A stretch of DNA of 64,000 nucleotides from Candidatus Poseidoniaceae archaeon (GTDB taxonomy: Archaea > Thermoplasmatota > Poseidoniia > Poseidoniales > Poseidoniaceae), in assembly GCA_028821785.1 (NCBI GenBank), contig JAPKFC010000002.1:2929-66928 (forward strand), in the 5' to 3' direction. The notes beneath the pieces are model-generated. The model saw only the letters and a list, made by a program, of their open reading frames with translations, did no database searches and was not told the DNA's origin. Both the position numbers and the translations under genes were made by a program. Position 1 is the first letter of the stretch. The number at the start of each line of letters is the position of its first letter. This document shows positions 426 to 47,778 of the stretch, piece after piece.

Positions 426-1610
426 GTGATATTTTTGAATGCGGATTATGATATTGTTATCGATGGTTCAAATTTGATTAATCATTCAGAAAAAGGTGTA
501 ACTAAACTAATACCAAGCCGTTTAATCAAAGCAATCCGCAAAGTGGAATTACTCGGATATACCCCCCTAACTTGCATTGATAGGTCAACATATAATCAAG
601 CAAAAAAGAAAAAGAAACCCCTTGAAGGAAGTATTGAAGATTTTGCAAAGTTAATCGATGAAGAAGGAATGCGATTCATGAATCGTGACGATGAAATGAT
701 CGACCATGCATTGCAACGTGGAGCATTAATACTAACAAATGACAGATTTAGAAAATGGAAAGATGGAACTGAAAAAACCAAACTAGAAATCGATTGGGAT
801 CTGGTTGATGAAAAATTAGTTCAGTGGTGGTTTGAGGATGAATTCTTCATGCCAGAATTATTAAAAAAATCCTCACAGCCATCAAAGATAATAGGAAAAG
901 CACCAATTAATAGTGTGAGAAGGTTGGCAAATAACAATTCAAATAAAAACGTACAAAGGAAAAAACGAAGTATGTTTATCAAGGTATTAGATTTAATATT
1001 TGATAATAATAAAAAAGCCCAAAAACCTCATAAAAGGGCTAAAAAGCAGCATAAAAATCAAACTAAATCAAAACCTCAAGCCTCTAAAAAACCTCAGGCT
1101 AAAGCGCAACAAAAGAAGGCCAAGCCCCAACAAAACAAACCGAAAAAGAATCCACAAAATCAAAAACCTAAGCAGACCAAACCGCAACAAAAGAAGGCTA
1201 AGCCTCAAGCTCAAAAGACTGCAAGCAAAGAAAAGAAACCTAATCCTCAAAGTAAAAAATCACTGCAGGCTAAAGCACCACAAAAGAAACCTAAACCTAG
1301 TTCAAAGAAGAGCAACAAGTCGAAACAAGCGAAGAACACTTCATCAGATATAGCCAATTTCAAATCCAAAATATTGGAAATACTTCCTGATAGAAAAATC
1401 TCAATATCCGGTCTTGCTACAATTATTAACAAACAGATGGTAGCCGCGGGTATCGAAAAGAACCCAACCACAGAGTTTCTCAAACAATATAAACTCCCGA
1501 AGGGCTTGAAAAAAGCCATCAATACTCACATGAGTGATGAAGTTATTATTACTGGGACGGGAACAAAATTCTTTATTGAAAAGAAAAGTAAAGCCGATAA
1601 AAAGGCCTGA
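426..1610 (+). CDS. NYN-domain (Zc3h12a-like) ribonuclease with a lysine-rich low-complexity linker and a C-terminal OST-HTH/LOTUS-like domain
   Basis: The N-terminus IVIDGSNL...LTNDRF resembles the NYN/PIN-like nuclease core. Residues ~190-300 are K/Q/P-rich repeats (QQKKAKPQ repeated). The C-terminal ~80 aa (ILEILPDRKISISGLATIINKQM...) resembles OST-HTH/LOTUS. The start is non-ATG: GTG at 426 directly abuts AAGGAG, and an in-frame TTG at 435 is also possible. Confidence 0.55.
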   Translation: MIFLNADYDIVIDGSNLINHSEKGVTKLIPSRLIKAIRKVELLGYTPLTCIDRSTYNQAKKKKKPLEGSIEDFAKLIDEEGMRFMNRDDEMIDHALQRGALILTNDRFRKWKDGTEKTKLEIDWDLVDEKLVQWWFEDEFFMPELLKKSSQPSKIIGKAPINSVRRLANNNSNKNVQRKKRSMFIKVLDLIFDNNKKAQKPHKRAKKQHKNQTKSKPQASKKPQAKAQQKKAKPQQNKPKKNPQNQKPKQTKPQQKKAKPQAQKTASKEKKPNPQSKKSLQAKAPQKKPKPSSKKSNKSKQAKNTSSDIANFKSKILEILPDRKISISGLATIINKQMVAAGIEKNPTTEFLKQYKLPKGLKKAINTHMSDEVIITGTGTKFFIEKKSKADKKA

Positions 1611-6899: not shown

Positions 6900-7004
6900 T
6901 GGTCCCCGCTCCCAGACTTGAACTGGGGACACCCTGATGTCTGCTGAGACGTTTTGTAATAATACAACTACAGTCAGGTGCTCTACCAACTGAGCTAAGC
7001 GAGG
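6900..7004 (-). tRNA. tRNA-Tyr (anticodon GUA) with a ~29-nt intron at the canonical 37/38 position and an encoded CCA
   Basis: The minus-strand reading is CCTCGCT-TA-GCTCAGTTGGTAGAGC-A-CCTGA-CTGTAG-[intron TTGTATTATTACAAAACGTCTCAGCAGAC]-A-TCAGG-GTGTC-CCCAG-TTCAAGT-CTGGG-AGCGGGG-A-CCA. Acceptor, D, anticodon and T stems all pair. Confidence 0.85.
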
Positions 7005-13331: not shown

Positions 13332-16300
13332 ATGGATGAGCGGAAGCCTCGCTTGATACGCCAAGGTTTGCCACAAAAGGCAGACCCTAGGCGAATGTCA
13401 ATTTTCCTCGTCTTGGTAATGATGTCTTCAATCGCAGTACCTGTCAATGCAGATGTTAGCGTAGCAACAGATGACTTCGGAGTTCTTGATGCTCTTGCCC
13501 AAACATTGGCAGACAGGGAACAGAGCGGTGAATCATTAATTGCTGTCCAAGGTGCAGATAATTCCTTGGCCTATGTTGATGCTGCTGCGAGACCAATTAC
13601 TACTAGTGATGCATTAAGTGAAGCGGATAGTTATCTCGAGGACATCGATATGCGAGATTCTACGCCGTATGAGGCAGATCATCCTAGGCCGTATCAATTT
13701 CTAATTGGAGAGGCTACACATCCAGATGGATGGCCTTACAATCTGTATGAAACTTTATTTTCAACTGAACAATTTGCATCAGACAATTTATTGGGCATTG
13801 GAATAAATACCTATGCAATTTATGTTAATTTTTCTTCAAGGAACGATGGGCCATCACATGAGGCTTGGGATTCAGGTACATTCACAGGTGAAATTTTCAC
13901 CGCCTCTGGTGGATTAGCGTTATTTGAAAATTATATTGATGTTGATGGTGATGGCATCGATGACCTTTCTGTTGCATTAACGGTTGAGGGAATTACCACA
14001 CTCGGTGAAGGAATCGGGGTTGAATTCAGTGATGATATAATCCCTCTTATCGAGGAGATTTGGATACGGCCGACTTTCAAATGGCAGGTAACCACTCTCA
14101 ATCAAAATGATCCATTATGGAATGAACTTGCACATTTAGAAGTCAGCCTAATGAAGGGGTTGGCCTTTGATATTACCTTTGATGATTCAGAATCTTATGC
14201 AATAGTAATCGATACACGTTTCACTCAGCCCCCTAATGATTTTTCATTAGGAGTCGGAATTCAAAAGATGACATTTGATGTCAATGCCGCTTTCACCAGT
14301 GCCTTTGCACTGATAGCAGCGTTAATAGGCGGACAAGTCAACTCATCCGAACTAACATTGACTGCAGTATCAGCACCTTATGCGTTAAGAATTGTCAATC
14401 CAAACCACGATTCTTCAAATCTTCAAACCGATTGTGAAGATGATAATTATTTTGACCCAATCAATGACCATATGGCAGAATCCCGTATGCACAAATGTGG
14501 ATTTAGTGTCGGCATTGGCTATGTTCACTTTGGGCAACAAAACCCCGGAGGGTCTGTTCCAGTTTTGGAATTGGCATATGTCGATGTAGGTTTCCATCCC
14601 GAACAAGGTTCAACATTACTTCCAGGGGAAGTAGATTTAACTTTGAGAAATGACAATTTTGGTAAGAACTCATTTGACACAGTAGAGATTTATTCTGATA
14701 CCGGTATAGACCTTTATGTCCATTATTATGAAGATAGGTCCGAGGTTCCAGAAGGAGATTTACCATTTGGAAACATCACCGATTCAAGGGCTTGGATTAG
14801 AGGATTACCGTCAGGTTCCCTACATGGCGATGAAATAAATGCAATTTTCACCATGATTGGAGAAGCACCGGGGTCTGCCAACCTTCCAGGGGATATGCCA
14901 ACTAGATTGTCACTGATTATTGCAATTAAAAATTTCACAGATGACAAAGATGGAAATGTCAATGACCCAACATTACCAGTGAACCCAAGCAGCCCGCCAA
15001 ATACATTAATCGCCATTGTTGGAACCGAATCAATAGATAGATTGGAATACAAATCAACTTTCATGAGAGGCGGCTATGCTAATGATTCATCATCTCTGCA
15101 AGTAGCTATTGATAATGTACCTAAAGCAATAGTTGTACAGGGTAGTTTCTTAGTTCCAAGCAGCGGTCTTGGAAGAATCAATTTCGATAATCCAAATTTA
15201 AACTCAGTCGCACAAGTTTTCGATAACGCACTACTCTCAATCGTTGAAATCATCTTGGATATTGGTGATGTTGTTAATGGCTTACCATCTTCTATTGTAG
15301 GGACAGCAGGTTCAAGCGGTGGTGAAGTCAATGTCAATTGTTACAATCAAATAAAGCAGAGTTTACCAACATCGGTAAGAGAACCGATGGAGATTGGTAG
15401 CCTGGAATTAGCAATCTCCTCCTCAGACCAACCTTGGCTTCCTGAAATGGATCACATTCTACTTTCCCAAGATATGGAGTTGGATGTTGTAGCCGGTAGG
15501 CTAGGTAGCCAACCACCACTAGTACCTATTGCAATCAGCATAAAAATTGGTGGTATAAGTCACATTAGGCATGCCTTTGACTCCGTAAATGAAATCAGAA
15601 ATATGGAATTAGATGGTATTGAAGGTGGGCCATTATTGATTGGTCATATCAAACATCATGGCACTGTATTTGATGATGCAGTACAACAATCAGCAACGGT
15701 TTCAAATCGTCCTAGCAGTTTTTCCGTTGTCCAAACAGATTCTGAATTATCATATTCGGCAAGCACCCCTATCGGCACTATCACCTATGGCGGCACAGCC
15801 GGAGAGCAAAGAAATGCAATACGTCTTGCTGGACTTCCAGCCTCATTTTCTATATTACTGGGAGATACAATCGGTTATGTTGCTAGCGAACCGATGGATT
15901 CAATCCAAATTCAAATGACAAATGCATCACAACCATTGACTATGGATGGAGATCATTTCAGATATTGGGTTGATGAAAACAATGGTGAAGCAAGTCTTAG
16001 TGCTCAGATTTCCAATGTTACTAGTCTGCAAAGATTGTCACCTCTTGTACCATCTGCTAGCGGTCCCGAAGGTAATTCTCGAATACAATTATTACGTTCT
16101 AGTTCATCACCATTTAACGTACTGATGGAGGATGTTTCAATTTACGATGATCCATTTTTGGGCCTTAATGGTAAGGCAAGGCTTGACCCATTACCTGCAA
16201 ATATCACCATGGCATATCCAAGTTCAGTAGATTCAACAAATCTACAACTACCCGACTTTGGAGATGGTGAAGGAATTGAAGCAGTATCATTCTTTTTGGG

Positions 16301-17996
16301 CGATCTTGTCGACTTTGGAACAGTCGTAAATGATTTCATTCATTCCATGTCAATGGATTTAGCAGGAACATCAGGAAACAATGCAGATATGGCAATCGGT
16401 TTGAATCTAGAAACAGGTGAAGAATTTGATATTACTGCAGATTTCATTAAAGGCACAAATGTTGACAATGTTCCTACTTGGCAGCATGGCTTATCAATGG
16501 AAGTTGAAGAACAAACTCGTATAATCTTTAATCTGTCAAGAATGCCAACATTTACTCTTTCCAGCCGTCAAGTTGTCAATTCTGCATTAGAAGATGGCAT
16601 GATTAGTAGCGATGAGGCAGATGCTGTAGTCAGCGCACTAGAGGCAGCAAATATCACCGATTCCCGAATATTGGTTAATTCACTTTTAGATTCTGTCATC
16701 ACAGATGAAGAAATCGCTCGTGTAAATTTATCAAAATGGCAACAACAAGGAATCACCATTGAAGATAGACGGGCATGGCATATTCGCTCATGGTTGCCGA
16801 ATTTACCACCTGGAACGATTCTAATAGAATATGATTTCAGAACACTTGATGGTATTCCAACCTATGAATTAGATATTGAATTAGACCAATGGCAACCTGA
16901 ACGCCAGCAATTGACATTCGAAGTAAATGGGTTTGATGGAAAAGATTTGAAATTAGTCTTAGATGGACTTGATAATCAAAAACCTAACAATGTGGTCGCC
17001 AATGCAGTATTTTCTACACAAGATAATCTAACTGTACCGCGTGTTACAGTTGATATGCACTATGATATTGGAGCAAGATTAAATTCAGCACATGCGATCT
17101 TTATTGATAAACATGTTATGAACCGGATTGAGGCACTTATCATCGGTGTTCCTCAATCCACCGATTTTTCAGCAACGATTGGTGATGTATTGCTAGTCGA
17201 TATCGAAGTGCCAATAGAATACCGCATAGACGAGCATTCAGCAGATGCAATCATGTTGCAATCGATGAGGTATATTGACGGCTTTTGGTGGCCTGCCACA
17301 GTTTTCATGAGAGATTTACCTGGAGTTATGCAACTGAAAGCGCAACCTCAACTTGTGTTTGACATCCGCGAAATGACTTCTTTCCAAGGAATGATGAGTT
17401 TAGATTATACTTCGAATACAGATGATATGGACTTGTATCTGGAAGCAAATGGAAGAGCGATTGACTCCAAAGGTGATGTTTTGATGTTGGCTGAGGATTT
17501 ACCGAGGCGCTTCGAACTTGTACCAACTGAAGACTGGGGTATGAAGGTTGATTCATCCGGTGTTGGAGTCAAACGAGTATATATCCGTCAAAGCAATGTT
17601 CCAAGTACACCAGGAGTTACAATTGACAGAATTGAAATTGTTGGACAGGATTTGAAATCTGCAACAATTCATATTTATGAAGGCCCGTTCAAGTATCCAA
17701 TTATTGTCTTGGATGATATTACCAATGGCAGAATAATAGTAAGTGCGCAGGCTACAATAGAGCCAGGATTTTACTATCCATCATTAGATGGCGTTGTTCT
17801 AGATGGTAGGGCAGTTCTTCTTGATGCACAATTCACTGGAGTAATACCAACAGCGTCTTCTTTAGGTGTCAATGGAATTGTTACTGACCTTTCATTGGTT
17901 GGAACACTGACGGGTGGTGCTGTTGAAACAAGACACATCATGGTCATCGAACCGTTGACTACAATGCTTGCTTCAGGCTTAATGCTACTAGGGTGA
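13332..17996 (+). CDS. giant secreted surface protein (1554 aa), hypothetical
   Basis: The signal peptide begins at internal Met (MSIFLVLVMMSSIAVPVNA). Long unbroken ORF, acidic and T/S/N-rich, with a hydrophobic C-terminus (MLASGLMLLG). Confidence 0.7.
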   Translation: MDERKPRLIRQGLPQKADPRRMSIFLVLVMMSSIAVPVNADVSVATDDFGVLDALAQTLADREQSGESLIAVQGADNSLAYVDAAARPITTSDALSEADSYLEDIDMRDSTPYEADHPRPYQFLIGEATHPDGWPYNLYETLFSTEQFASDNLLGIGINTYAIYVNFSSRNDGPSHEAWDSGTFTGEIFTASGGLALFENYIDVDGDGIDDLSVALTVEGITTLGEGIGVEFSDDIIPLIEEIWIRPTFKWQVTTLNQNDPLWNELAHLEVSLMKGLAFDITFDDSESYAIVIDTRFTQPPNDFSLGVGIQKMTFDVNAAFTSAFALIAALIGGQVNSSELTLTAVSAPYALRIVNPNHDSSNLQTDCEDDNYFDPINDHMAESRMHKCGFSVGIGYVHFGQQNPGGSVPVLELAYVDVGFHPEQGSTLLPGEVDLTLRNDNFGKNSFDTVEIYSDTGIDLYVHYYEDRSEVPEGDLPFGNITDSRAWIRGLPSGSLHGDEINAIFTMIGEAPGSANLPGDMPTRLSLIIAIKNFTDDKDGNVNDPTLPVNPSSPPNTLIAIVGTESIDRLEYKSTFMRGGYANDSSSLQVAIDNVPKAIVVQGSFLVPSSGLGRINFDNPNLNSVAQVFDNALLSIVEIILDIGDVVNGLPSSIVGTAGSSGGEVNVNCYNQIKQSLPTSVREPMEIGSLELAISSSDQPWLPEMDHILLSQDMELDVVAGRLGSQPPLVPIAISIKIGGISHIRHAFDSVNEIRNMELDGIEGGPLLIGHIKHHGTVFDDAVQQSATVSNRPSSFSVVQTDSELSYSASTPIGTITYGGTAGEQRNAIRLAGLPASFSILLGDTIGYVASEPMDSIQIQMTNASQPLTMDGDHFRYWVDENNGEASLSAQISNVTSLQRLSPLVPSASGPEGNSRIQLLRSSSSPFNVLMEDVSIYDDPFLGLNGKARLDPLPANITMAYPSSVDSTNLQLPDFGDGEGIEAVSFFLGDLVDFGTVVNDFIHSMSMDLAGTSGNNADMAIGLNLETGEEFDITADFIKGTNVDNVPTWQHGLSMEVEEQTRIIFNLSRMPTFTLSSRQVVNSALEDGMISSDEADAVVSALEAANITDSRILVNSLLDSVITDEEIARVNLSKWQQQGITIEDRRAWHIRSWLPNLPPGTILIEYDFRTLDGIPTYELDIELDQWQPERQQLTFEVNGFDGKDLKLVLDGLDNQKPNNVVANAVFSTQDNLTVPRVTVDMHYDIGARLNSAHAIFIDKHVMNRIEALIIGVPQSTDFSATIGDVLLVDIEVPIEYRIDEHSADAIMLQSMRYIDGFWWPATVFMRDLPGVMQLKAQPQLVFDIREMTSFQGMMSLDYTSNTDDMDLYLEANGRAIDSKGDVLMLAEDLPRRFELVPTEDWGMKVDSSGVGVKRVYIRQSNVPSTPGVTIDRIEIVGQDLKSATIHIYEGPFKYPIIVLDDITNGRIIVSAQATIEPGFYYPSLDGVVLDGRAVLLDAQFTGVIPTASSLGVNGIVTDLSLVGTLTGGAVETRHIMVIEPLTTMLASGLMLLG

Positions 17997-18000
17997 TTAC

Positions 18001-18681
18001 ATGACAGATAGATCGGAATCAAAGGAAATCGCAGTGGGCCAAGACGGCGAACTGTTAGTTCATGAGGATGACATCACAGAGACCGGTGGATTAATGGCTA
18101 GAGGTTTGGATAAACAAGCTGAATTGGGAGCATTTGACAGCGATAATGAAGAGGATAGAGAGGATTGGGAATACGCCCAAGAAGCAGCAAAGAGTCTTCG
18201 TGACAAAGTGATTGAAGTCGACCCGTATCAAGTGGTGCTGGCAGGTTTTGTAATCCTCTTGATGATCGGAGTTGTCCTCAGTGGATGGTACTGGGTACTG
18301 CCACGAGATTCAGTAGTTCTTGAAACACATTACAAACAACGTGGTGGACATTTGATGATGTCCGAATTAACCAATGATGGTAGTAGGGAAATCACCGATG
18401 TTGTAATCCATGTAGAATTCCAAGATGTTGATGGTTTAGTTCTAGATCAAATGAGAATTGAATTGGATAAAGTTTCAGCCCATGCCTCCATAGCAGGAGA
18501 TGATTTGGAAATGCTAGTTTCTGGTTATACAATTTGGGATAATTACATAGTTCATACGCATATAGAATGGACCGATTACAATGGCGATGACAATCGTCAA
18601 GACTGGTATCATTATGTTGGTCATTGGTCAAGTGAAATATTCATTGATGAAGGCGATAAAAGCACTTGGCCCTTCTCTTGA
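18001..18681 (+). CDS. hypothetical acidic single-pass membrane protein
   Basis: One TM helix (VVLAGFVILLMIGVVLSGWYWVL). It starts 5 nt after the stop of the upstream giant gene. Confidence 0.45.
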   Translation: MTDRSESKEIAVGQDGELLVHEDDITETGGLMARGLDKQAELGAFDSDNEEDREDWEYAQEAAKSLRDKVIEVDPYQVVLAGFVILLMIGVVLSGWYWVLPRDSVVLETHYKQRGGHLMMSELTNDGSREITDVVIHVEFQDVDGLVLDQMRIELDKVSAHASIAGDDLEMLVSGYTIWDNYIVHTHIEWTDYNGDDNRQDWYHYVGHWSSEIFIDEGDKSTWPFS

Positions 18682-38441: not shown

Positions 38442-38515
38442 TTACCCAATAATCACTGTATTGGTATGTGAACCCTTCAAGAAGGGTTGGCCGGTGGAGC
38501 AGTTAGGTGCAAGCA

Positions 38516-39188
38516 TATGGGACGTCGTCGTGAAGAGAAAGTAGACGTGGAAGAACTAGCCCGTCTTGAATCTCCTGAGGGAGGAACAGGCGGCAAAATA
38601 CGTGTTAAGATGCCAAACAAAAAGGTCAACGAAATGTTTGCCTTAGCAGATCAAATTCTCGGAGGCCGTCGTGTTTCAGTATTGTGCGCAGATGGTGAGA
38701 CTAGAATGGCTCGGATACCAGGTAAAATGCGTCGCCGGCAATGGGTTCGTGAAGGAGACTTGATTATCGTATGGCCTTGGGATTTCCAAGATGCTAAAGC
38801 AGATGTCAAGCATAGATATAGCAAGACTCAATCCATGTATCTCTCACGAAAAGGAGTACTTCCTGAATCAGTAGATGTGTTCGGAATGAATACTCGCCAA
38901 GATGATGATGATGAATTCGATGACCTATTTGGTAATGCATCAGAAATGGAAGAACTCTCACTGAAAAGTGAGGCTGCGGTAGAAGAAACCGCTGCCGATG
39001 AAGCAGAAGATATGTTCGAAGATGATGATGACGATTCAGATGACTTGTTTGCAAGTGATGAAGAAGAATCCACTGTCGAAGAAGCAGAAGTCACAGAAGT
39101 CGCGGAAGAATCACCTCAAGAGATTGAAGAAGAACCAGTTGACGATGATGATGACGATGACGATGATATCGACGCATTATTCGCTTGA
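38516..39188 (+). CDS. eif1a: translation initiation factor aIF-1A with a ~110-aa poly-acidic C-terminal extension
   Basis: KIRVKMPNKKVNEMFALADQILGGRRVSVLCADGETRMARIPGKMRRRQWVREGDLIIVWPWDFQD is the S1-like aIF-1A core. ATG at 38516 is preceded by AGGTG. The C-terminus is D/E-rich and ends DDDDDDDDIDALFA. Confidence 0.8.
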
Positions 39189-42840: not shown

Positions 42841-43045
42841 ACTCTAGAGACGTTCGGGCTCAGCCTTCAATGCTACCCCTAGAAATGCTTCTTTTGACGA
42901 TTAAGTGAAGGTTACAATCTTTACCAACATCATAATTCCATAGCATCGTATGTATTTTGGCGAGCCAAAGAATCTCCAACACTTGGCAACTATAGGCATA
43001 GATTTGAGATGGGTTCAAGTGCTACGCAATACCACGCTTAGATAC

Positions 43046-45838
43046 ATGGCGAAAGAGTTGAAGTCCATACTGGTCGTAGTATTGTTGGCTCTGACAATAA
43101 TTCCTCTCTCAGTTTCGGCGGAAACTAGTGGTGGCATTCAGGCCTCACCATCTACTTTGAGTATATTGCCGACCTCTCCCCAAGCCGGTGACTCAATCAC
43201 TATTTTGCTAACACTTTACAACTCTCAACAATCCGATGCTTTCAATGTAGAATACTCCTTTTTCAAGGATGAAATAAGTTCTGAGAAGAGGATTGTAACG
43301 AATACTGTCAATATCCTCGGTGGATCAACTGCTGATGTTAGTGCAACATGGAATTCACTAACTGAAGGAACTCACAAAGTGTGGGTTACATTTTCTCATA
43401 ACGGTGATACTGAGGCATCATTTTACCTAGAGTTCGTAGTGACGGGGTTACCAAACCTGCAAATTGCTGAAACGGCATTATCTCCTGCAACTGATATTAA
43501 ATCCGGAGAGACGGTTACAGCATCAACTCGTATTACCAATACTGGTAGCGTTAATGCATCAGCCAGCACTCTTCATTTTTCAACATCCAGCGGTGAACAA
43601 CAATTTTTGCCAACTCCAGCAATAACCGCAGGTCAATCACAATGGGTTAACACCACATTTATTGCACCACAAAGTGGAACTCATACCATCTATCTCAATC
43701 CCGATTATTATGAAGAAATACACGAAGCATCTGAGATAAACAAAATTGTTGAACAATCTTTGTTAGTTGAGACCAGAATGGATGTCTATCATATTGGAGA
43801 CCTGACGATAAGTGTTGAAGAAGACGATTTAGAAGGCCCATGGACCATTGAAGGAACGCTGGGTAGAACCAATGGAACTGGAACTACTGAAGTCCAACTA
43901 CGTCTAGAGATTCCAACCGATAATGGTGGATTGCTAATGATGCCTCCATTTACTGTAAATCTCTCAGGCGCAGGATATGCAGAAAAGTCATGGAGTCAAG
44001 TACTGACGATTAATGATCTAGCTTCATTGAGCGATGGTCCTCATATTGTGACGGCACAAATAGACCCATTCAATTCAGGTAACTTCGTTCAAGAATCAAC
44101 AGATAATGATAGAACATCAGGCCAGATATCCATTTATCCAATTCCAGATATTTTTGTCGATGGAGATGCAATACCTTCTTCTTCATCGATTGCTTCAGGT
44201 GAAGATGTAACCTGGAGAGTTAGTATTTCCAATGTAGGAGATATCCAAGTGCGAGGAAGAATAGTTTACACTTGGGAAGGCGTCCAAAGTCAATCAGACT
44301 GGATCTATATCGATGCAAGTGCAACCCAACCATGGGATATTACATTGACCACATTAATCGGTTCACACTCAGCAGAATTTGAAGCACAATGGGTCCCACA
44401 TACAACCAGTTGGGATAGTAATCCATTGAATAGTCTGGCTACAGGTAGTATTTCTGTTGAGGCTCCATTGCGGTTGCAATGGGTCTATACATCTATTTCA
44501 TTGACTGATATAACTGGAAATACCGCCTCACAACCGTTGCAAGGCGGAGATTCATACACATTGTCAATTAATATGACGAGTATTGAAACTGGTAATGTGT
44601 CATTCGATTGTAAAGATGGTTCTGGAACTTTGTTAGAGACAATGTTTGTAACTATAGAAGAGAGAGGAGACAGAGCCTCAGTTTCCTGTAACTTCGTCGC
44701 TTCATCGCCAATTAGCACACTCCGAATTTCACCATCTGACATCACAGTTACTAGTACGTTTACGCGTGCCTTCCCAACTGTTGCTACCGATGATGGTGCA
44801 ACAGATGCTGAAACATCCGCTAAGGGTACAATGGTTTTGCTTGGAGGCGGTGTTCTTGGGTTGATCGCATTACTAGTAGTGGCATATATTCTTACCAGAG
44901 AAAGAGAAGAAGAAGTGGAAAGAGATATTTTCGATTATTGCCCATCATGTGATGGTGAATTAGAAGGGGTCGAAGACCGCTGTCCACATTGCTCATTCAA
45001 CCTTAAGAAAGCAAGAAAGCAATTCCATGATTGTCATGAATGTTCAGAATCTATTCCAGATTTGATGGAAGATTGCCCGTATTGTGGTGCTAAGCAAGAT
45101 GTGTCGTCATTCTTTGAGCAACGTCAAAGAAGAGTTGTAGAGGAGAAAGAACTTATTCCTATTGAGGAAGAGGATGATGAAGATGAAATTGTTACAGGAA
45201 CAGAAGACTTTGCATCGACAGTTCAAGAATTTGGTTATGATGAAGATGATCTCGGGCAAGAATGGGATAAGAATTTGAAGAGTGCTGAGGAAGAAGTTGA
45301 AGCTGCATACGATAGAAAACATGCAGATGAATTAGCGCTTGAAGGCCTCACAGAAGAAGAGATTGAAGAATTGAAGAGCGAGGTTACAACGACACTCACG
45401 AGCGCTAAAGATGCCGCAGTTGGTGTCGGAATTGACGAGATGCTCGGAGGTCGTGAACTCCATGCGCACTTGGATGATGGAGAAGATCTATCGGCAAGTG
45501 ATGCAGGAATTAGAGAGCAAATATTCAATGTTACAGGTGAAGATGGAGTTCTACCAGGAGACAAGTTTGAAGTTGGAATGAGTGCAACCGATAATTCATT
45601 AGCAGGAAATGAGGTTAAAGATTCAACAACAGATTTCTCCTTTGAAGAGGATGATGCACCACTTTCAGCATCGACTATGTCCGATGCAGAAGTTGCAACT
45701 GCAAGGGAGGCGAAGAAGCCAAAACGCCGCGCCACTAAGCGAAGAGAAGATGCCTCGCAAGTAGCCGAATGTGGAGCATGTGGAGCAGATATTCCAGTTG
45801 AAGCCAATGAATGTGGTACTTGCGGTGCAAAGTTCTAA
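43046..45838 (+). CDS. large surface protein with CARDB-like repeats, a TM helix and an acidic cytoplasmic domain flanked by two zinc-ribbon clusters
   Basis: Signal peptide MAKELKSILVVVLLALTIIPLSVSA (ATG at 43046; the ORF track starts at 42950). TM helix MVLLGGGVLGLIALLVVAYIL. Cysteine clusters CPSCDGE..CPHCSF..CHECSE..CPYCG and a terminal CGACGADIPVEANECGTCGAKF. Confidence 0.65.
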   Translation: MAKELKSILVVVLLALTIIPLSVSAETSGGIQASPSTLSILPTSPQAGDSITILLTLYNSQQSDAFNVEYSFFKDEISSEKRIVTNTVNILGGSTADVSATWNSLTEGTHKVWVTFSHNGDTEASFYLEFVVTGLPNLQIAETALSPATDIKSGETVTASTRITNTGSVNASASTLHFSTSSGEQQFLPTPAITAGQSQWVNTTFIAPQSGTHTIYLNPDYYEEIHEASEINKIVEQSLLVETRMDVYHIGDLTISVEEDDLEGPWTIEGTLGRTNGTGTTEVQLRLEIPTDNGGLLMMPPFTVNLSGAGYAEKSWSQVLTINDLASLSDGPHIVTAQIDPFNSGNFVQESTDNDRTSGQISIYPIPDIFVDGDAIPSSSSIASGEDVTWRVSISNVGDIQVRGRIVYTWEGVQSQSDWIYIDASATQPWDITLTTLIGSHSAEFEAQWVPHTTSWDSNPLNSLATGSISVEAPLRLQWVYTSISLTDITGNTASQPLQGGDSYTLSINMTSIETGNVSFDCKDGSGTLLETMFVTIEERGDRASVSCNFVASSPISTLRISPSDITVTSTFTRAFPTVATDDGATDAETSAKGTMVLLGGGVLGLIALLVVAYILTREREEEVERDIFDYCPSCDGELEGVEDRCPHCSFNLKKARKQFHDCHECSESIPDLMEDCPYCGAKQDVSSFFEQRQRRVVEEKELIPIEEEDDEDEIVTGTEDFASTVQEFGYDEDDLGQEWDKNLKSAEEEVEAAYDRKHADELALEGLTEEEIEELKSEVTTTLTSAKDAAVGVGIDEMLGGRELHAHLDDGEDLSASDAGIREQIFNVTGEDGVLPGDKFEVGMSATDNSLAGNEVKDSTTDFSFEEDDAPLSASTMSDAEVATAREAKKPKRRATKRREDASQVAECGACGADIPVEANECGTCGAKF

Positions 45839-46013: not shown

Positions 46014-46568
46014 TTGATGCAACAAAGAGTATTGGCAATGCTTGTGGTTTTGACAATGTTGTTGACATCAACTGTTGGTTGCTTGGGTTTGATTCCAGCC
46101 CGTGAGGCGGTTGAGGGGTTTAGAGAACCAGCAGAAGATGATTTGACCTATCAAAAGATAGATGTCTCACACACCTATACTTCCCTGGAAATACAGCCCT
46201 ATACAAACAAATCCATATTTGTTGTAGATCATTCTGTTACTGAAATTTCGATTTATTTCAAGGCATCATTTACATTCTCTGACATATTTCCACAAATTGA
46301 AAATAATACGAGATATGTTAGAGCAACATTAACTGATTCTGAAGGAGTAATCCAATGGTCTGTTGATGTCAGTTCAGATTCAGCACCGATTGAAGAAAAA
46401 CTTGAACCTAATCCTACATTTACCAAGGGTGATTGGGTATTAGATGTTGAAGCGAGAGGCATTGGTGAAGAGACGCTAGGATTAATTCATGATAATTTCA
46501 ATATTCAATTGACCATTACACAGAGATGCGTCCAATATCCAATGGAAAAATCTTGTTCAGCAGATTGA
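46014..46568 (+). CDS. hypothetical secreted protein or lipoprotein
   Basis: Signal peptide with a lipobox-like LLTSTVGC. Confidence 0.4.
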   Translation: MMQQRVLAMLVVLTMLLTSTVGCLGLIPAREAVEGFREPAEDDLTYQKIDVSHTYTSLEIQPYTNKSIFVVDHSVTEISIYFKASFTFSDIFPQIENNTRYVRATLTDSEGVIQWSVDVSSDSAPIEEKLEPNPTFTKGDWVLDVEARGIGEETLGLIHDNFNIQLTITQRCVQYPMEKSCSAD

Positions 46569-46569
46569 A

Positions 46570-47778
46570 TCAAGCCAATGCTTCAGAGCATGCATAATTG
46601 CGTGAGCAGTTTTTACATTTACCTGGCCTTTCATGGTTTCTTTTGGCATCGTTGTGGACCATCAATCTCTGGACTTCAGCAATAGCATCGAACAACATTT
46701 CTTTATTCCCATCATCCCATGAGATTTGATGCAAATCCTCATTTCCATATCTCAGAACCCCATAAGGAGCGGGTCTTTTAGTATTAATTTCTACTAAATG
46801 CAAATACGCCAAGACTTGTATCTTGTGAGAGCGGTGAGGGTGTTTTGGGACTCTTCCTGTTTTCTGTTCCACCGGAATAAACTCACCATCTACAATCACT
46901 ATCTGGTCTGGTCTTCCTCGAAGGCCGGTTATTGGATCTTTCAATAGACTCGAAGAATCTTCATTATCAGAATATGCAATTTCTGTATTTTCTTGCAAAC
47001 CAACAATTTCCCTTGCGATTTCTAATGCGTTTTCTACGAGCAGGGCTTTTTGCAATTGCCAAGAAGCGATCAGTGTCCAAGCCATTGCCAATATAGCCAA
47101 CAAGAAACCTGCTTGACTTTTGTTCTCTGCACCTACTAGGGCGATTGAATGCAGAGCCAATGCTATTGCAGACAGAAATAATGAGGCCTCTACTCGACCC
47201 GCTTCAAACCATCCACCGATAAAACCTTGAGGCTGTAATACCGATTCAATATGATATGTGTCATCTGCATGAAAATTGCTTTTTGATTTTGCAATAGTAT
47301 TCGTCCATCCAATCCATTCTCTCCATGGCAGATAAACTGCCACAACTCCAGTAATTAGAAGAGATAATGCCCAGAGTGCCAAATATCTAGCAATCGACAA
47401 AGGGGTGTGAATAACATCGTCTATCAATGAAAAAACAATAGCATCTATGATGAAAACTAAGATAACAGCAAACCACCATGACCAGATGACCATAGCCATT
47501 CGCAATTTTGCGTGTTTCTCTTGATAGTCTTTCACTTGGCCATGAATTGTGGCGTGTTTTTCGACTCCAGCTGTAATTGCTTCACCTTGGCCACGTTTCC
47601 CTTCTCGCGCTAGCGACCAAGAGAGAGGACAATATTCGTGGCGTTCCAAATCGCTGGCACTAACTCTTAACGGTTCACCATTTTGTAATCGCCAAACACC
47701 GTCCTCGTGGCGTTCAGCACCACTAAATTGGTCTGATTTAGGAGAATCTTGAGCCATCTTATTTCTCCCCGTAGGCAC
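46570..47778 (-). CDS. Cas4/RecB-family PD-(D/E)xK nuclease (DUF83-like) with an Fe-S cysteine signature and a four-helix transmembrane insertion
   Basis: N-terminal Cys (HEYCPLSW). Motif II/III VDGEFIPVEQK. QhxxY motif KIQVLAYLHL. C-terminal C-x2-C-x5-C (CKNCSRNYAC). Four hydrophobic helices lie between the N-terminal Cys region and motif II. Confidence 0.6.
   Translation of the reverse strand: MPTGRNKMAQDSPKSDQFSGAERHEDGVWRLQNGEPLRVSASDLERHEYCPLSWSLAREGKRGQGEAITAGVEKHATIHGQVKDYQEKHAKLRMAMVIWSWWFAVILVFIIDAIVFSLIDDVIHTPLSIARYLALWALSLLITGVVAVYLPWREWIGWTNTIAKSKSNFHADDTYHIESVLQPQGFIGGWFEAGRVEASLFLSAIALALHSIALVGAENKSQAGFLLAILAMAWTLIASWQLQKALLVENALEIAREIVGLQENTEIAYSDNEDSSSLLKDPITGLRGRPDQIVIVDGEFIPVEQKTGRVPKHPHRSHKIQVLAYLHLVEINTKRPAPYGVLRYGNEDLHQISWDDGNKEMLFDAIAEVQRLMVHNDAKRNHERPGKCKNCSRNYACSEALA

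What the first reader, a model, noticed from the sequence alone, without database searches (positions are those of the whole stretch)
46570..47778. Stand-alone Cas4/RecB-like PD-(D/E)xK nuclease with Fe-S cysteines split by a four-helix membrane insertion
The 402-aa protein carries the full Cas4/DUF83 signature. It has an N-terminal Cys (EYCPLSW), motif II/III D...ExK (VDGEFIPVEQK), the RecB QhxxY motif (KIQVLAYLHL) and a C-terminal C-x2-C-x5-C (CKNCSRNYAC). Four clear hydrophobic helices (~residues 95-240) are inserted between the N-terminal Cys region and the catalytic core. A membrane-anchored Cas4-family nuclease is atypical. There is no CRISPR array or cas gene in the window. It may be a membrane-associated DNA-processing or defence nuclease, for example acting on incoming DNA at the envelope.
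Basis: seen in the sequence. Interest (0 to 1): 0.65.

Follow-up and report, generated by a model that had tools for sequence, protein, structure and literature searches.

The report
Membrane-embedded Cas4-family DNA nuclease
This marine archaeon encodes a DNA-cutting enzyme of the Cas4 family whose fold is interrupted by four membrane-spanning helices, so the enzyme sits on the inner face of the cell membrane; the same design is conserved across a whole archaeal phylum, has no CRISPR partner, and seems not to have been described.

Summary
It has both halves of a Cas4/RecB-type nuclease: an N-terminal Cys/His half, then GRPD, ExK, SHxxQxxxY and CxxCx5C, with exactly four Cys. About 160 residues forming four hydrophobic helices separate the halves.

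Pfam, PADLOC Cas4 models and Foldseek (Cas4, Dna2, MGME1, ACE1) support the fold assignment. A good AlphaFold model (pLDDT 83) shows the His helix running into TM1 and TM4 running into the core.

Relatives carry 2, 4 or 8 helices, an even number in 370 of 399. They obey the positive-inside rule, which puts the nuclease in the cytoplasm.

The gene is a vertically inherited, strongly syntenic chromosomal gene in Poseidoniales, found in at least 573 species genomes, with dN/dS about 0.13. It is also present in other Thermoplasmatota. It never lies next to cas genes or CRISPR arrays and is absent from the viral, phage and plasmid collections searched.

It is best read as a membrane-tethered solo-Cas4. 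Its biological role is inferred, not shown: handling DNA at the membrane, or genome maintenance. I rate it a new variant of a known kind.

The parts
46570..47757 (-). Complete CDS of the membrane-inserted Cas4-family nuclease (395 aa plus stop).
   Evidence: ORF. Homologs are 395 aa. GGGGAG lies 7 nt upstream of ATG 47757. TTG occupies the same position in L005 and L006. dN/dS is 0.13.
47509..47757 (-). N-terminal Cas4 half, residues 1-83. It contains a short beta hairpin, the SASDLERHEYCPLSW motif (Cys43, first Fe-S ligand; 47617-47661) and GVEKH (His68, motif I metal ligand; 47554-47568).
   Evidence: Cys43 and His68 are invariant in 101 of 101 sequences. The profile aligns to the N-terminal part of Cas4 4R5Q and 8D3L. 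pLDDT is 91-95.
47425..47493 (-). TM1 (residues 89-111), continuous with the His68 helix. It carries intramembrane Asp105.
   Evidence: KD peak 2.56. AF2 helix 59-111. Asp105 is present in 44 of 44 long forms.
47332..47400 (-). TM2 (residues 120-142).
   Evidence: KD peak 2.10. AF2 helix 117-142. The outer loop between TM1 and TM2 is short and poor in K/R.
47197..47331 (-). Cytoplasmic loop, residues 143-187. It includes the conserved PWR motif and ends in the cap motif F-x-GGWFEAG (GGWFEAG at 47197-47217).
   Evidence: The loop is rich in K/R, mean 5.0 per loop. Pro144, Trp145, Arg146 and Gly187 are each present in 44 of 44 long forms. pLDDT is below 50 for residues 165-183.
47131..47196 (-). 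TM3 (residues 188-209), with intramembrane His203.
   Evidence: KD peak 2.00. AF2 helix 187-209. His203 is present in 44 of 44 long forms, and Asn replaces it in 39 of 57 short forms.
47050..47118 (-). TM4 (residues 214-236), which continues as a helix to residue 252 and into the nuclease core. It contains Trp227.
   Evidence: KD peak 1.72. AF2 helix 213-252. Trp227 is present in 100 of 101 sequences.
46573..47022 (-). Catalytic core and Fe-S module, residues 246-395. Motifs: AYSD (46966-46977); GRPD motif II with Asp284 (46906-46917); EQK motif III with Glu297 and Lys299 (46861-46869); SHKIQVLAY QhxxY motif (46804-46830); CKNCSRNYAC with Cys381, 384 and 390 (46588-46617).
   Evidence: Pfam and PADLOC matches cover this part. 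All named residues are invariant or nearly so in 101 sequences. Foldseek matches Cas4/Cas1 7MI4 at rmsd 1.9 A over 120 columns. dN/dS is 0.08.
46014..46568 (+). Convergent neighbour encoding a 184-aa predicted lipoprotein (signal peptide ending in ...VGC). Its stop codon lies 1 nt from the nuclease's stop codon. It is listed as context only; a functional link is not shown.
   Evidence: It is adjacent in 82 of 83 Poseidoniales loci but evolves fast, at 30-44% identity. It has no Pfam or PADLOC family.

Best explanation
What it is (high confidence). The gene encodes an integral-membrane member of the stand-alone ('solo') Cas4 branch of RecB/Dna2-type PD-(D/E)xK nucleases. A bundle of two helical hairpins (four transmembrane helices) is inserted between the helix that carries the first Fe-S cysteine and the metal-binding histidine and the first strand of the catalytic sheet. 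The two halves reassemble into one nuclease domain on the cytoplasmic side. That domain is held on the membrane by two long continuous helices: the His68 helix runs into TM1, and TM4 runs into the core. All catalytic residues (His68, Asp284, Glu297, Lys299, Gln314, Tyr318) and the four cysteines are under strong purifying selection. The protein is therefore expected to be an active, metal-dependent, Fe-S-containing DNA nuclease.

How it works (inferred). Like characterised Cas4 enzymes, it should bind free DNA ends or single-stranded DNA and cut or degrade them. The tether restricts this activity to DNA that lies at the inner face of the membrane. My preferred role is a housekeeping 'gatekeeper' that processes or destroys linear DNA arriving at or through the membrane, whether viral, plasmid or scavenged, while keeping a potentially dangerous nuclease away from the bulk chromosome. 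It is not part of CRISPR adaptation.
For: Shown:
- Cas4 and PD-(D/E)xK family matches.
- A confident AlphaFold model, pLDDT 83.3 and pTM 0.77, in which the N half and the core are both above 90 pLDDT and four long helices fill the insert.
- Foldseek hits to Cas4, Dna2, MGME1 and ACE1 at probability 1.0.
- Catalytic and Cys residues invariant in 101 diverse sequences.
- Even helix counts in relatives: 4 helices in 319, 8 in 32 and 2 in 19 of 399.
- K+R counts of 11.5 on the nuclease side against 2.1 on the other side, with the expected sign in 100% of 4-TM and 8-TM proteins.
- dN/dS of 0.14, 0.18 and 0.08 for the N half, insert and core.
- At least 573 species-representative genomes encode a relative. 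The best 80 are all Poseidoniales except one record titled Salipiger bermudensis (L063) that has the same Poseidoniales gene order.
- The same gene order recurs across loci, with uS2 and the small lipoprotein each in 82 of 83.
- No cas gene or CRISPR array.
- No relatives in viral, phage or plasmid collections.

Supporting the role at the membrane:
- In other Thermoplasmata the gene directly follows, on the same strand, a secreted membrane-anchored LTD + PLD-family protein that resembles PLD nucleases (DrmC). This holds in 27 loci even where that partner has diverged to 30% identity.
- In one genome it follows an HhH/zinc-ribbon/LTD surface protein.
- Related bacterial proteins carry a single N-terminal membrane anchor in front of the same core.

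Background. Solo-Cas4 genes are vertically inherited with unknown 'defence or repair' roles (PMC5704561). M. mazei solo-Cas4 is an Fe-S, Mn/Mg-dependent DNA nuclease (PMC12501428).
Against: - No experiment or coordinate-level check was possible. I could not measure Cys-Cys distances or see which way the active site faces.
- Cytoplasmic orientation rests on the positive-inside rule and on the need to assemble an Fe-S cluster.
- The role is not established. The gene behaves like an ordinary housekeeping gene: vertical descent, no defence island, no mobile elements.
- In 30 loci of another lineage its operon partner is a cytoplasmic CDIN1-like (TPD) nuclease. Elsewhere its neighbours are RFC or ribonucleotide reductase. 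These fit genome maintenance as well as gatekeeping.
- Each neighbour pattern may be lineage-specific synteny only. Poseidoniales have neither partner nearby.
- Conserved intramembrane Asp105 and His203 and the GGWFEAG cap are not explained by a simple anchor.
Confidence: 0.55

Rival explanations
1. Genome-maintenance enzyme. The tethered nuclease processes the cell's own DNA at the membrane, for example resecting broken ends, handling replication or segregation intermediates, or clearing DNA trapped at the division site. It may work together with a CDIN1-like nuclease where one is present.
For: - Vertical inheritance, near-universal presence and strict housekeeping synteny.
- dN/dS typical of ordinary genes.
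- A same-strand TPD/CDIN1-like PD-(D/E)xK gene lies 28-92 nt upstream in 30 loci.
- RFC small subunit lies immediately upstream in two loci, ribonucleotide reductase immediately downstream in four, and DNA gyrase subunits lie a few genes upstream in one.
- Cas4 relatives AddB, RecB and Dna2 are repair and replication nucleases (PMC5704561).
Against: - This reading gives no reason for membrane insertion.
- Each neighbour pattern is confined to one lineage with extended conserved gene order, so it may not reflect function.
- Poseidoniales lack these partners nearby.
Confidence: 0.3
2. Membrane-state-gated nuclease. The transmembrane bundle acts as a sensor of membrane potential, tension, an ion or proton site, or viral perturbation. 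Movement of TM1 relative to TM4 is transmitted through the continuous helices to His68 and the core, switching the nuclease on. The outcome could be abortive infection or stress-triggered DNA degradation.
For: - The catalytic His68 helix is continuous with TM1, and TM4 is continuous with the core.
- Intramembrane Asp105 and His203 are present in 44 of 44 long forms. A polar residue (Asn) occupies the His position in 39 of 57 short forms.
- The cap motif GGWFEAG is conserved at the membrane interface.
Against: - The number of helices varies (2, 4, 8), and most insert positions are not conserved across the family. That fits an anchor better than a precise sensor.
- Asp105 is absent from the short forms.
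- There is no defence-island context.
Confidence: 0.1
3. Orphan CRISPR adaptation Cas4, as databases name it ('CRISPR-associated exonuclease Cas4'), serving a CRISPR-Cas system encoded elsewhere in the genome.
For: Database names and matches to Cas4 models.
Against: - The score falls below the TIGR00372 equivalog cutoff, 57.4 against 65.
- No cas1, cas2 or array occurs in the 64-kb window.
- No cas family appears among the called genes of the 9 loci for which precomputed Pfam families were listed.
- The 83 Poseidoniales loci all share the window's housekeeping gene order.
- Inheritance is vertical, unlike the mobile adaptation modules described in PMC5704561.
- A membrane tether is hard to reconcile with a Cas4-Cas1-Cas2 complex.
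Confidence: 0.02
4. The hydrophobic segments are not membrane-spanning. They would be a buried soluble helical domain or an annotation artefact.
For: No experimental topology exists. TM4 is only moderately hydrophobic, with a KD peak of 1.72.
Against: - There are four segments of 22-24 residues joined by very short odd loops.
- Helix numbers in relatives are even, and charge asymmetry has the expected sign in all 351 four- and eight-helix proteins.
- The insert has no counterpart in solved Cas4.
- The gene is intact and conserved in hundreds of genomes.
Confidence: 0.03

Closest known systems
Cas4 nucleases of CRISPR adaptation modules (Pfam PF01930/DUF83, COG1468; solved examples SSO0001 4IC1, Pcal_0546 4R5Q, type I-C Cas4 8D3L, Cas4/Cas1 7MI4)
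   Same: - The same RecB-type core, with D, ExK and QhxxY motifs.
- The same 1 + 3 cysteine Fe-S arrangement joining the N and C termini.
- Profile and fold matches.
   Different: - About 160 extra residues forming four transmembrane helices lie between the His helix and the core.
- There is no cas1/cas2 or CRISPR context.
- The score is below the TIGR00372 equivalog cutoff.
- It is a vertically inherited chromosomal gene.
Solo-Cas4 of archaea (Hudaiberdiev et al. 2017, PMC5704561; M. mazei Solo-Cas4, PMC12501428)
   Same: - It is encoded outside CRISPR loci.
- It forms lineage-level clades inherited vertically.
- It evolves under ordinary purifying selection.
- It is predicted to be an Fe-S DNA nuclease of unknown cellular role.
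   Different: The described solo-Cas4 proteins are soluble. The 2017 survey does not use the word 'transmembrane'. No paper with phrases such as 'membrane-bound Cas4' was found. Here the membrane insert is the defining feature.
Dna2 / AddB / RecB / Exo5 / MGME1 'iron-staple' and related nuclease domains
   Same: The same fold. Where present, the same idea of an Fe-S cluster stapling an N-terminal helix to the core. The top Foldseek hits include Dna2 and MGME1. Weak Exo5 matches occur at the N terminus of relatives.
   Different: Those domains are parts of soluble helicase-nuclease machines or mitochondrial enzymes. None is split by membrane helices.
Membrane-located nucleases of bacterial DNA uptake (EndA, NucA) and membrane-anchored defence complexes (Kiwa, Zorya). 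Named from my own knowledge plus PMC11785009.
   Same: The working idea is shared: DNA-acting proteins are placed at the membrane, where foreign DNA enters.
   Different: The folds are unrelated. EndA and NucA act outside the membrane, whereas here the catalytic domain is predicted to be inside. No homology or shared partners were found, and PADLOC finds only Cas4 models.
Single-anchor Cas4-core proteins, about 170-180 aa, found here. One cluster is named Anaerolineaceae bacterium.
   Same: The same core with (I/V)Y.D, G(K/R)PD, PVE.K, Q..AY and C..C.....C motifs. They are also membrane-tethered, with basic residues after the anchor, so the nuclease lies inside.
   Different: They have one N-terminal helix instead of an internal insert. 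They lack the N-terminal Cys/His half, so only three of the four cysteines remain.

Membership tests
Cas4 / DUF83 (Pfam PF01930) | Score above the curated Pfam gathering threshold | tested here: met
   36.4 bits against a cutoff of 22.7, E 7e-9, residues 287-397 on profile positions 53-158 of 160. Only the C-terminal part matches in a single-sequence search.
Cas4 / DUF83 (Pfam PF01930) | RecB motifs: motif II Asp, motif III ExK and QhxxY | tested here: met
   GRPD (Asp284), EQK (Glu297, Lys299) and Q314..Y318. Asp284, Lys299 and Tyr318 are invariant, and Glu297 and Gln314 are each present in 100 of 101 sequences.
Cas4 / DUF83 (Pfam PF01930) | Four cysteines (one N-terminal plus C-x2-C-x5-C) that bind an Fe-S cluster | tested here: met
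   Cys43, 381, 384 and 390 are the only cysteines and are present in 101 of 101 sequences. Actual cluster binding is not testable with these tools.
Cas4 / DUF83 (Pfam PF01930) | Fold of solved Cas4 structures | tested here: met
   Foldseek gives 7MI4 at E 5e-4 and rmsd 1.9 A over 120 columns, and 8D3L at TMt 0.47-0.52, both at probability 1.0. The profile aligns both halves to 4R5Q and 8D3L.
Cas4 / DUF83 (Pfam PF01930) | Compact soluble single domain of about 160-220 aa | tested here: not met
   The protein is 395 aa with an insert of about 160 aa forming four transmembrane helices.
Cas4 / DUF83 (Pfam PF01930) | 5'-3' exonuclease or endonuclease activity on DNA | not testable with these tools
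   Activity is inferred from conserved catalytic residues only.
CRISPR-associated Cas4 (TIGR00372 equivalog; adaptation module) | Score above the NCBIfam equivalog cutoff | tested here: not met
   57.4 bits against a cutoff of 65.
CRISPR-associated Cas4 (TIGR00372 equivalog; adaptation module) | Encoded next to cas1/cas2 and a CRISPR array | tested here: not met
   No array in 64 kb. The 34 window ORFs scanned are housekeeping or surface proteins. The 83 orthologous loci share the same non-cas neighbours. No cas family appears among the called genes of 9 loci with precomputed Pfam families.
Solo-Cas4 (sensu Hudaiberdiev et al. 2017) | Cas4-family gene outside CRISPR-cas loci, inherited mainly vertically within an archaeal lineage | tested here: met
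   At least 573 species genomes carry a relative. Synteny is conserved across Poseidoniales down to 50% identity. The gene is absent from viral, phage and plasmid sets.
Integral (polytopic) membrane protein | Hydrophobic helices long enough to span a bilayer | tested here: met
   Four segments have KD peaks of 1.72-2.56 over 19 residues. AF2 helices span 59-111, 117-142, 187-209 and 213-252.
Integral (polytopic) membrane protein | Consistent topology: even number of helices for an insert within one domain, and the positive-inside rule | tested here: met
   Helix counts in 399 relatives are 4 in 319, 8 in 32, 2 in 19 and 3 in 26, with 3 others. Mean K+R is 11.5 on the nuclease side against 2.1 in the odd loops, with the expected sign in 100% of 4-TM and 8-TM proteins.
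Integral (polytopic) membrane protein | Experimental membrane association and topology | not testable with these tools
   No dedicated TM predictor or experiment was available. Hydropathy and charge bias were computed by script.
Known anti-phage defence systems (PADLOC-DB v2) | Protein and its neighbours match the components of a catalogued system | tested here: not met
   Only stand-alone Cas4, Cas4/Cas1 and weak DruK nuclease-domain matches were found for the protein. The adjacent lipoprotein has no match.

The most novel reading that the evidence does not exclude
The transmembrane hairpins are more than an anchor. In this reading the enzyme oligomerises, as some Cas4 proteins form rings, so that its helices line a membrane conduit. 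With conserved intramembrane Asp and His, the complex would form an archaeal DNA-entry or DNA-disposal machine in which DNA crossing the membrane is fed directly into a Cas4 active site. Where present, it would be coupled on the outside to the adjacent secreted LTD-PLD nuclease-like protein. That would be a previously unknown route for DNA uptake, scavenging or exclusion in one of the ocean's most abundant archaeal groups.
Probability: 0.08. Interest if true: 0.85.

Novelty: new variant of a known kind. Interest (0 to 1): 0.6.

Why it matters
Cas4-family nucleases encoded away from CRISPR loci occur in most archaea, and their cellular job has been an open question since at least 2017. Here a whole phylum-level lineage has hard-wired its solo-Cas4 into the membrane, including the very abundant marine Poseidoniales. 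The design evolved by adding helical hairpins (2, 4, 8), and related proteins, at least some of them bacterial, appear to have reached a tethered form with a single anchor.

Location is a strong functional clue. It says this nuclease is meant to act at the cell boundary, or to be kept away from the chromosome. That turns 'defence or repair?' into testable experiments on localisation, topology, activity in nanodiscs, and the fate of incoming DNA.

It also corrects a systematic annotation error. Several sources, JGI above all, name these proteins 'CRISPR-associated exonuclease Cas4', yet no CRISPR context appears in any locus examined here. Finally, it is a clear natural example of a soluble enzyme fold split by a membrane domain and reassembled.

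Tried and rejected
1. A first AlphaFold run with 20 close homologs gave pLDDT 58 and was discarded. A 101-sequence alignment was needed.
3. I tested whether the abutting lipoprotein of Poseidoniales is homologous to the small lipoprotein found downstream in other Thermoplasmata. BLASTP gave E 11-32, so no homology was detected.
4. I looked for TPD/CDIN1-like or LTD-PLD partners in the window and in 83 Poseidoniales loci. None was found. Those associations are therefore lineage-specific and cannot be transferred to this genome.
5. Viral (IMG/VR), phage (INPHARED) and plasmid (PLSDB) searches gave no full-length relatives. Only Cas4-core matches to bacterial Cas4/Cas1 appeared. A mobile-element origin is rejected.
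6. Literature searches for any membrane or transmembrane Cas4 found nothing relevant. The JCVI-syn3.0 'novel Cas4-like' protein is a different, soluble fusion.
7. The window protein's insert alone matches no Pfam family. A relative's insert matches DUF2101 just above threshold, and S_4TM matches only weakly. I did not build on this.
8. Cluster look-ups of the 2-TM and most 8-TM forms returned no organism names, so their taxonomy is unknown.
9. ORF calling in high-GC loci produced spurious antisense ORFs. Neighbour counts were redone with tblastn.
Full report
OBSERVATION

Window 46570..47778 on the minus strand is an open frame of 402 codons from a GTG. It contains the quoted strings HEYCPLSW, VDGEFIPVEQK, KIQVLAYLHL and CKNCSRNYAC. 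It has exactly four cysteines, at 50, 388, 391 and 397. A 19-residue Kyte-Doolittle scan finds four hydrophobic segments with peaks of 2.56, 2.10, 2.00 and 1.72 between residues about 95 and 243.

One correction concerns the start codon.
- That ATG at 47757 has GGGGAG 7 nt upstream.
- Two orthologs have TTG at the same position.

IS IT A CAS4-TYPE NUCLEASE?

Yes, on several independent lines.
- Pfam gives PDDEXK_1 (6e-9) and Cas_Cas4/DUF83 (7e-9; 36.4 bits against a cutoff of 22.7) on the C-terminal part.
- PADLOC's Cas4 models reach 1e-18.
- NCBIfam's Cas4 equivalog TIGR00372 scores 57.4 bits, below its cutoff of 65. The protein is therefore family-level Cas4 but not a standard CRISPR Cas4.
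- A profile built from 101 family members aligns both halves to solved Cas4 proteins. The N-terminal 'sASDlErYxYCPlsW...G...H' stretch aligns to residues 53-109 of Pcal_0546 (4R5Q), and the core aligns to residues 119-214. In ordinary Cas4, about 10 residues separate what is separated here by about 160.

Across 101 sequences, down to 26% identity, the following are invariant or nearly so:
- Cys43 and His68;
- Tyr262 and Asp264;
- Gly281, Pro283 and Asp284 (motif II);
- Glu297 and Lys299 (motif III);
- Ser310, His311, Gln314 and Tyr318;
- Arg373 and His375;
- Cys381, Cys384 and Cys390.

STRUCTURE

A first AlphaFold run with 20 close homologs was poor, with pLDDT 58. With a 101-sequence alignment the model reached mean pLDDT 83.3 and pTM 0.77. 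The N-terminal half (pLDDT 91-95) and the core (about 90-98) are both confident.
- One helix runs from residue 59, through His68, to residue 111. The catalytic-site helix therefore continues straight into TM1.
- Helices 117-142 and 187-209 are TM2 and TM3.
- Helix 213-252 is TM4, continuing out of the membrane into the first core strand at 259.
- Only residues 1-4 and the loop 165-183 have low confidence.

ARE THE HELICES REALLY TRANSMEMBRANE, AND WHICH SIDE IS THE ENZYME ON?

A profile search of 1.84 billion representative proteins found 1037 relatives, 412 of them at E<=1e-10. Nearly all full-length ones combine the N-terminal YC motif, an internal hydrophobic block and the C-terminal CxxCx5C.

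- 4 hydrophobic segments in 319;
- 8 in 32;
- 2 in 19;
- 3 in 26, which are probably threshold misses.
An even number is what an insert inside a single domain requires.

Charge bias is strong. In the 4-helix proteins, mean K+R is 3.4 in the N flank, 1.1 in loop 1-2, 5.0 in loop 2-3, 1.0 in loop 3-4 and 3.0 in the C flank. The nuclease side outnumbers the other side in 100% of the 4- and 8-helix proteins. With the positive-inside rule, and because Fe-S clusters are assembled in the cytoplasm, the nuclease and the long loop are cytoplasmic. Only two very short loops face outward.

The 8-helix inserts are internal duplications of the 4-helix unit. In P0383 the two halves are 28% identical over 157 residues with E 6e-17. 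Composition correction was off, so this E-value is optimistic. The insert seems to have grown by hairpin duplication.

WHO HAS IT, AND HOW IS IT INHERITED?

Named relatives are Poseidoniales (Marine Group II), Thermoplasmata and Thermoplasmatota MAGs. They are labelled 'Dna2/Cas4 domain-containing' or 'CRISPR-associated exonuclease Cas4'. The best 80 are all Poseidoniales except one record titled Salipiger bermudensis (L063), which has the same gene order.

In 83 loci the neighbourhood is almost fixed, down to 50% protein identity:
- ribosomal protein uS2, divergent, in 82 of 83;
- a small lipoprotein gene, convergent and abutting, in 82 of 83;
- a CARDB/double-zinc-ribbon surface protein in 77;
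- a Big_13/CARDB protein in 69;
- Dus in 70.

Pairwise dN/dS among close orthologs is 0.14 for the N half, 0.18 for the insert and 0.08 for the core.

The 64-kb window is ordinary chromosome. It carries a complex I operon, ribosomal proteins L15e and uS2, eIF1A, RIO kinase, a subtilase and other surface proteins, and beta-oxidation genes. It has no cas gene among the ORFs scanned and no CRISPR-like repeat array. No relative occurs in IMG/VR viral contigs, GenBank phages or PLSDB plasmids, apart from core-only matches to bacterial Cas4/Cas1.

This profile matches what Hudaiberdiev et al. (PMC5704561) describe for solo-Cas4: vertical inheritance, ordinary selection and unknown function ('defence or repair'). 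That paper never mentions transmembrane segments. Targeted literature searches for membrane-bound Cas4 returned nothing.

CONTEXT OUTSIDE POSEIDONIALES

I examined 86 loci from other Thermoplasmata, of which 67 have at least 900 nt upstream.
- In 30 loci the gene directly follows, on the same strand, a TPD-domain protein (PF14811, E 4e-44), with a gap of 28-92 nt. TPD is the family of human CDIN1/C15orf41, a predicted PD-(D/E)xK nuclease (PMC7261414).
- In 27 loci it follows a secreted, C-terminally anchored protein with a lamin-tail domain and two PLD domains. That protein's best defence-database similarity is to the PLD nuclease DrmC. The adjacency persists while the partner diverges to 30% identity.
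- In a 4.2-Mb Thermoplasmata genome, an 8-helix version follows a 1447-aa HhH/zinc-ribbon/TPR protein with two extracellular lamin-tail domains.
- Other lineages have RFC small subunit or a metallophosphoesterase upstream. Ribonucleotide reductase lies downstream in four loci.
- Neither TPD nor PLD occurs near the gene in Poseidoniales.

These patterns have a nucleic-acid flavour. However, each is confined to one lineage with extended conserved gene order, so they are hints, not proof.

RELATED ARCHITECTURES

The weaker hits include two further forms.
- A 198-aa soluble form has no insert.
- Many proteins of 170-180 aa have a single N-terminal hydrophobic helix followed by basic residues and then the same core, but lack the N-terminal Cys/His half. 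One cluster is named Anaerolineaceae bacterium.
Membrane tethering of this Cas4 branch thus seems to have arisen, or been kept, in more than one form, always with the nuclease inside.

WHAT IT MOST LIKELY DOES

Shown: it is a conserved, intact, purifying-selection-maintained Cas4-family nuclease domain with complete catalytic and Fe-S residues, split by a transmembrane hairpin bundle.

Inferred: the domain is cytoplasmic and rigidly mounted on the membrane. Like characterised Cas4 and the M. mazei solo-Cas4 (PMC12501428), it should be a Mn/Mg-dependent DNA nuclease acting on ends or single strands.

The only feature that distinguishes it from other solo-Cas4 proteins is its location. I therefore favour a role for which location matters: processing or destroying linear DNA that appears at the inner face of the membrane, whether viral, plasmid or scavenged, while keeping the enzyme off the bulk chromosome. 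I put about 0.4 on this role. I put about 0.9 on the molecular description.

A genome-maintenance role is nearly as likely, at about 0.3. It fits the housekeeping inheritance and the TPD and RFC neighbours, but it does not explain the tether.

A gating or sensor role for the insert is possible, at about 0.1. His68 is on the same helix as TM1. In the Poseidoniales-type proteins, intramembrane Asp105 and His203 and the cap motif F-x-GGWFEAG are conserved in 44 of 44 or nearly so. Against this, the variable helix number and poor conservation of the insert across the wider family favour a simple anchor.

A CRISPR adaptation role and a non-membrane explanation are each very unlikely.

COMPARISON AND NOVELTY

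The protein works like a Cas4/solo-Cas4 nuclease and meets the family's sequence and fold criteria. It fails the 'compact soluble domain' and 'CRISPR-associated' features and the TIGR00372 cutoff. I file it as a solo-Cas4 with a transmembrane insertion, a new variant of a known kind, and not as a CRISPR Cas4.

Within the limits of the searchable literature I found no description of it. Public annotations call it 'Dna2/Cas4 domain-containing protein', 'hypothetical protein' or, misleadingly, 'CRISPR-associated exonuclease Cas4'.

Interest is moderate to high (0.6). The function of solo-Cas4 is a standing question. This lineage-wide membrane version, in one of the most abundant marine archaeal groups, gives it a concrete, testable handle. 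No new chemistry or system is demonstrated.

Noticed in passing
L084:5200-5976 with L084:6001-6996; L088:5213-5971 with L088:6001-6981; 30 of the loci L084-L169: In one Thermoplasmata lineage an archaeal homolog of human CDIN1/C15orf41 sits 28-92 nt upstream of the membrane Cas4 on the same strand, apparently as an operon of two nucleases. The homolog has a TPD domain (PF14811, E 4e-44) and is a predicted PD-(D/E)xK nuclease with TPD...ESK motifs. This could bear on the unknown activity of CDIN1.
   Followed up: partly
L127:3098-5146 and 26 further loci among L090-L169: A secreted protein lies directly upstream of the membrane Cas4 on the same strand. It has a signal peptide, a lamin-tail domain, two PLD domains (best PADLOC similarity DrmC) and a C-terminal membrane anchor. 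The adjacency is kept while this protein diverges to 30% identity. The picture is one nuclease-like protein outside the membrane and one inside.
   Followed up: partly
Proteins P0245-P0270, e.g. P0249, P0270: Proteins of about 170-180 aa have a single N-terminal membrane helix followed by basic residues and the Cas4 core, but lack the N-terminal Cys/His half, so only three Fe-S cysteines remain. One cluster is named Anaerolineaceae bacterium. P0257 (198 aa) is a soluble relative without an insert.
   Followed up: partly
window 46014-46568 (+): A 184-aa predicted lipoprotein (signal peptide ending ...TSTVGC) has no Pfam or PADLOC family. Its stop codon is 1 nt from the convergent nuclease's stop codon, so the two transcripts must overlap or end inside each other. 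It is adjacent in 82 of 83 Poseidoniales loci but evolves fast, at 30-44% identity.
   Followed up: partly
window 47050-47493 (residues Asp105, His203, Trp227) and 47197-47217 (GGWFEAG): Several polar residues inside the membrane helices are conserved. TM1 Asp105 and TM3 His203 are present in 44 of 44 Poseidoniales-type proteins, with Asn at the His position in 39 of 57 short forms. TM4 Trp227 is present in 100 of 101. A conserved cap motif F-x-GGWFEAG precedes TM3. None of this is explained by a simple anchor.
   Followed up: partly
Proteins P0383, P0137, P0141 (8-helix forms); L086:6001-7662: The 8-helix inserts are tandem duplications of the 4-helix unit, with halves 24-28% identical over 157-194 residues. 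Weaker matches occur at a two-helix offset. The insert seems to grow by hairpin duplication.
   Followed up: partly
Protein P0301 residues 49-178 (relative): The membrane insert of some relatives matches Pfam DUF2101 ('predicted membrane protein' of archaea) just above threshold, at 26.7 bits against 22. Another relative matches DUF1673 just below threshold. The window protein's own insert matches nothing. This is a possible source of the inserted module.
   Followed up: no
window 6903-7004 (-): Rfam's tRNA model matches at 52.8 bits over 102 nt for a 71-position model, while ARAGORN reports no tRNA in the window. This is probably an intron-containing archaeal tRNA.
   Followed up: no
window 42950-45838 (+) and L086:1646-5989: Large surface proteins combine extracellular adhesin-like domains (CARDB here, lamin-tail domains in L086) with a transmembrane helix and cytoplasmic double zinc ribbons, plus HhH and TPR in L086. 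They lie near the membrane Cas4 in distant lineages. It is unclear whether this is more than coincidence.
   Followed up: no
window 13332-17996 (+) and 18001-18681 (+): A 1554-aa ORF and the following 226-aa ORF have no Pfam family at E<=1e-4. They sit just upstream of a 1534-aa subtilase/CARDB protein and a 984-aa Ig-like-domain protein, forming a block of giant, probably secreted proteins.
   Followed up: no
window 426-1610 (+), repeats at 1095-1301; window 38487-39188 (+), repeats at 38899-39051: A NYN-domain (Zc3h12a-like) RNase carries a C-terminal region with three 36-nt lysine/glutamine-rich repeats. An eIF1A homolog of 233 aa, about twice the usual length, has an acidic repeat extension.
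   Followed up: no
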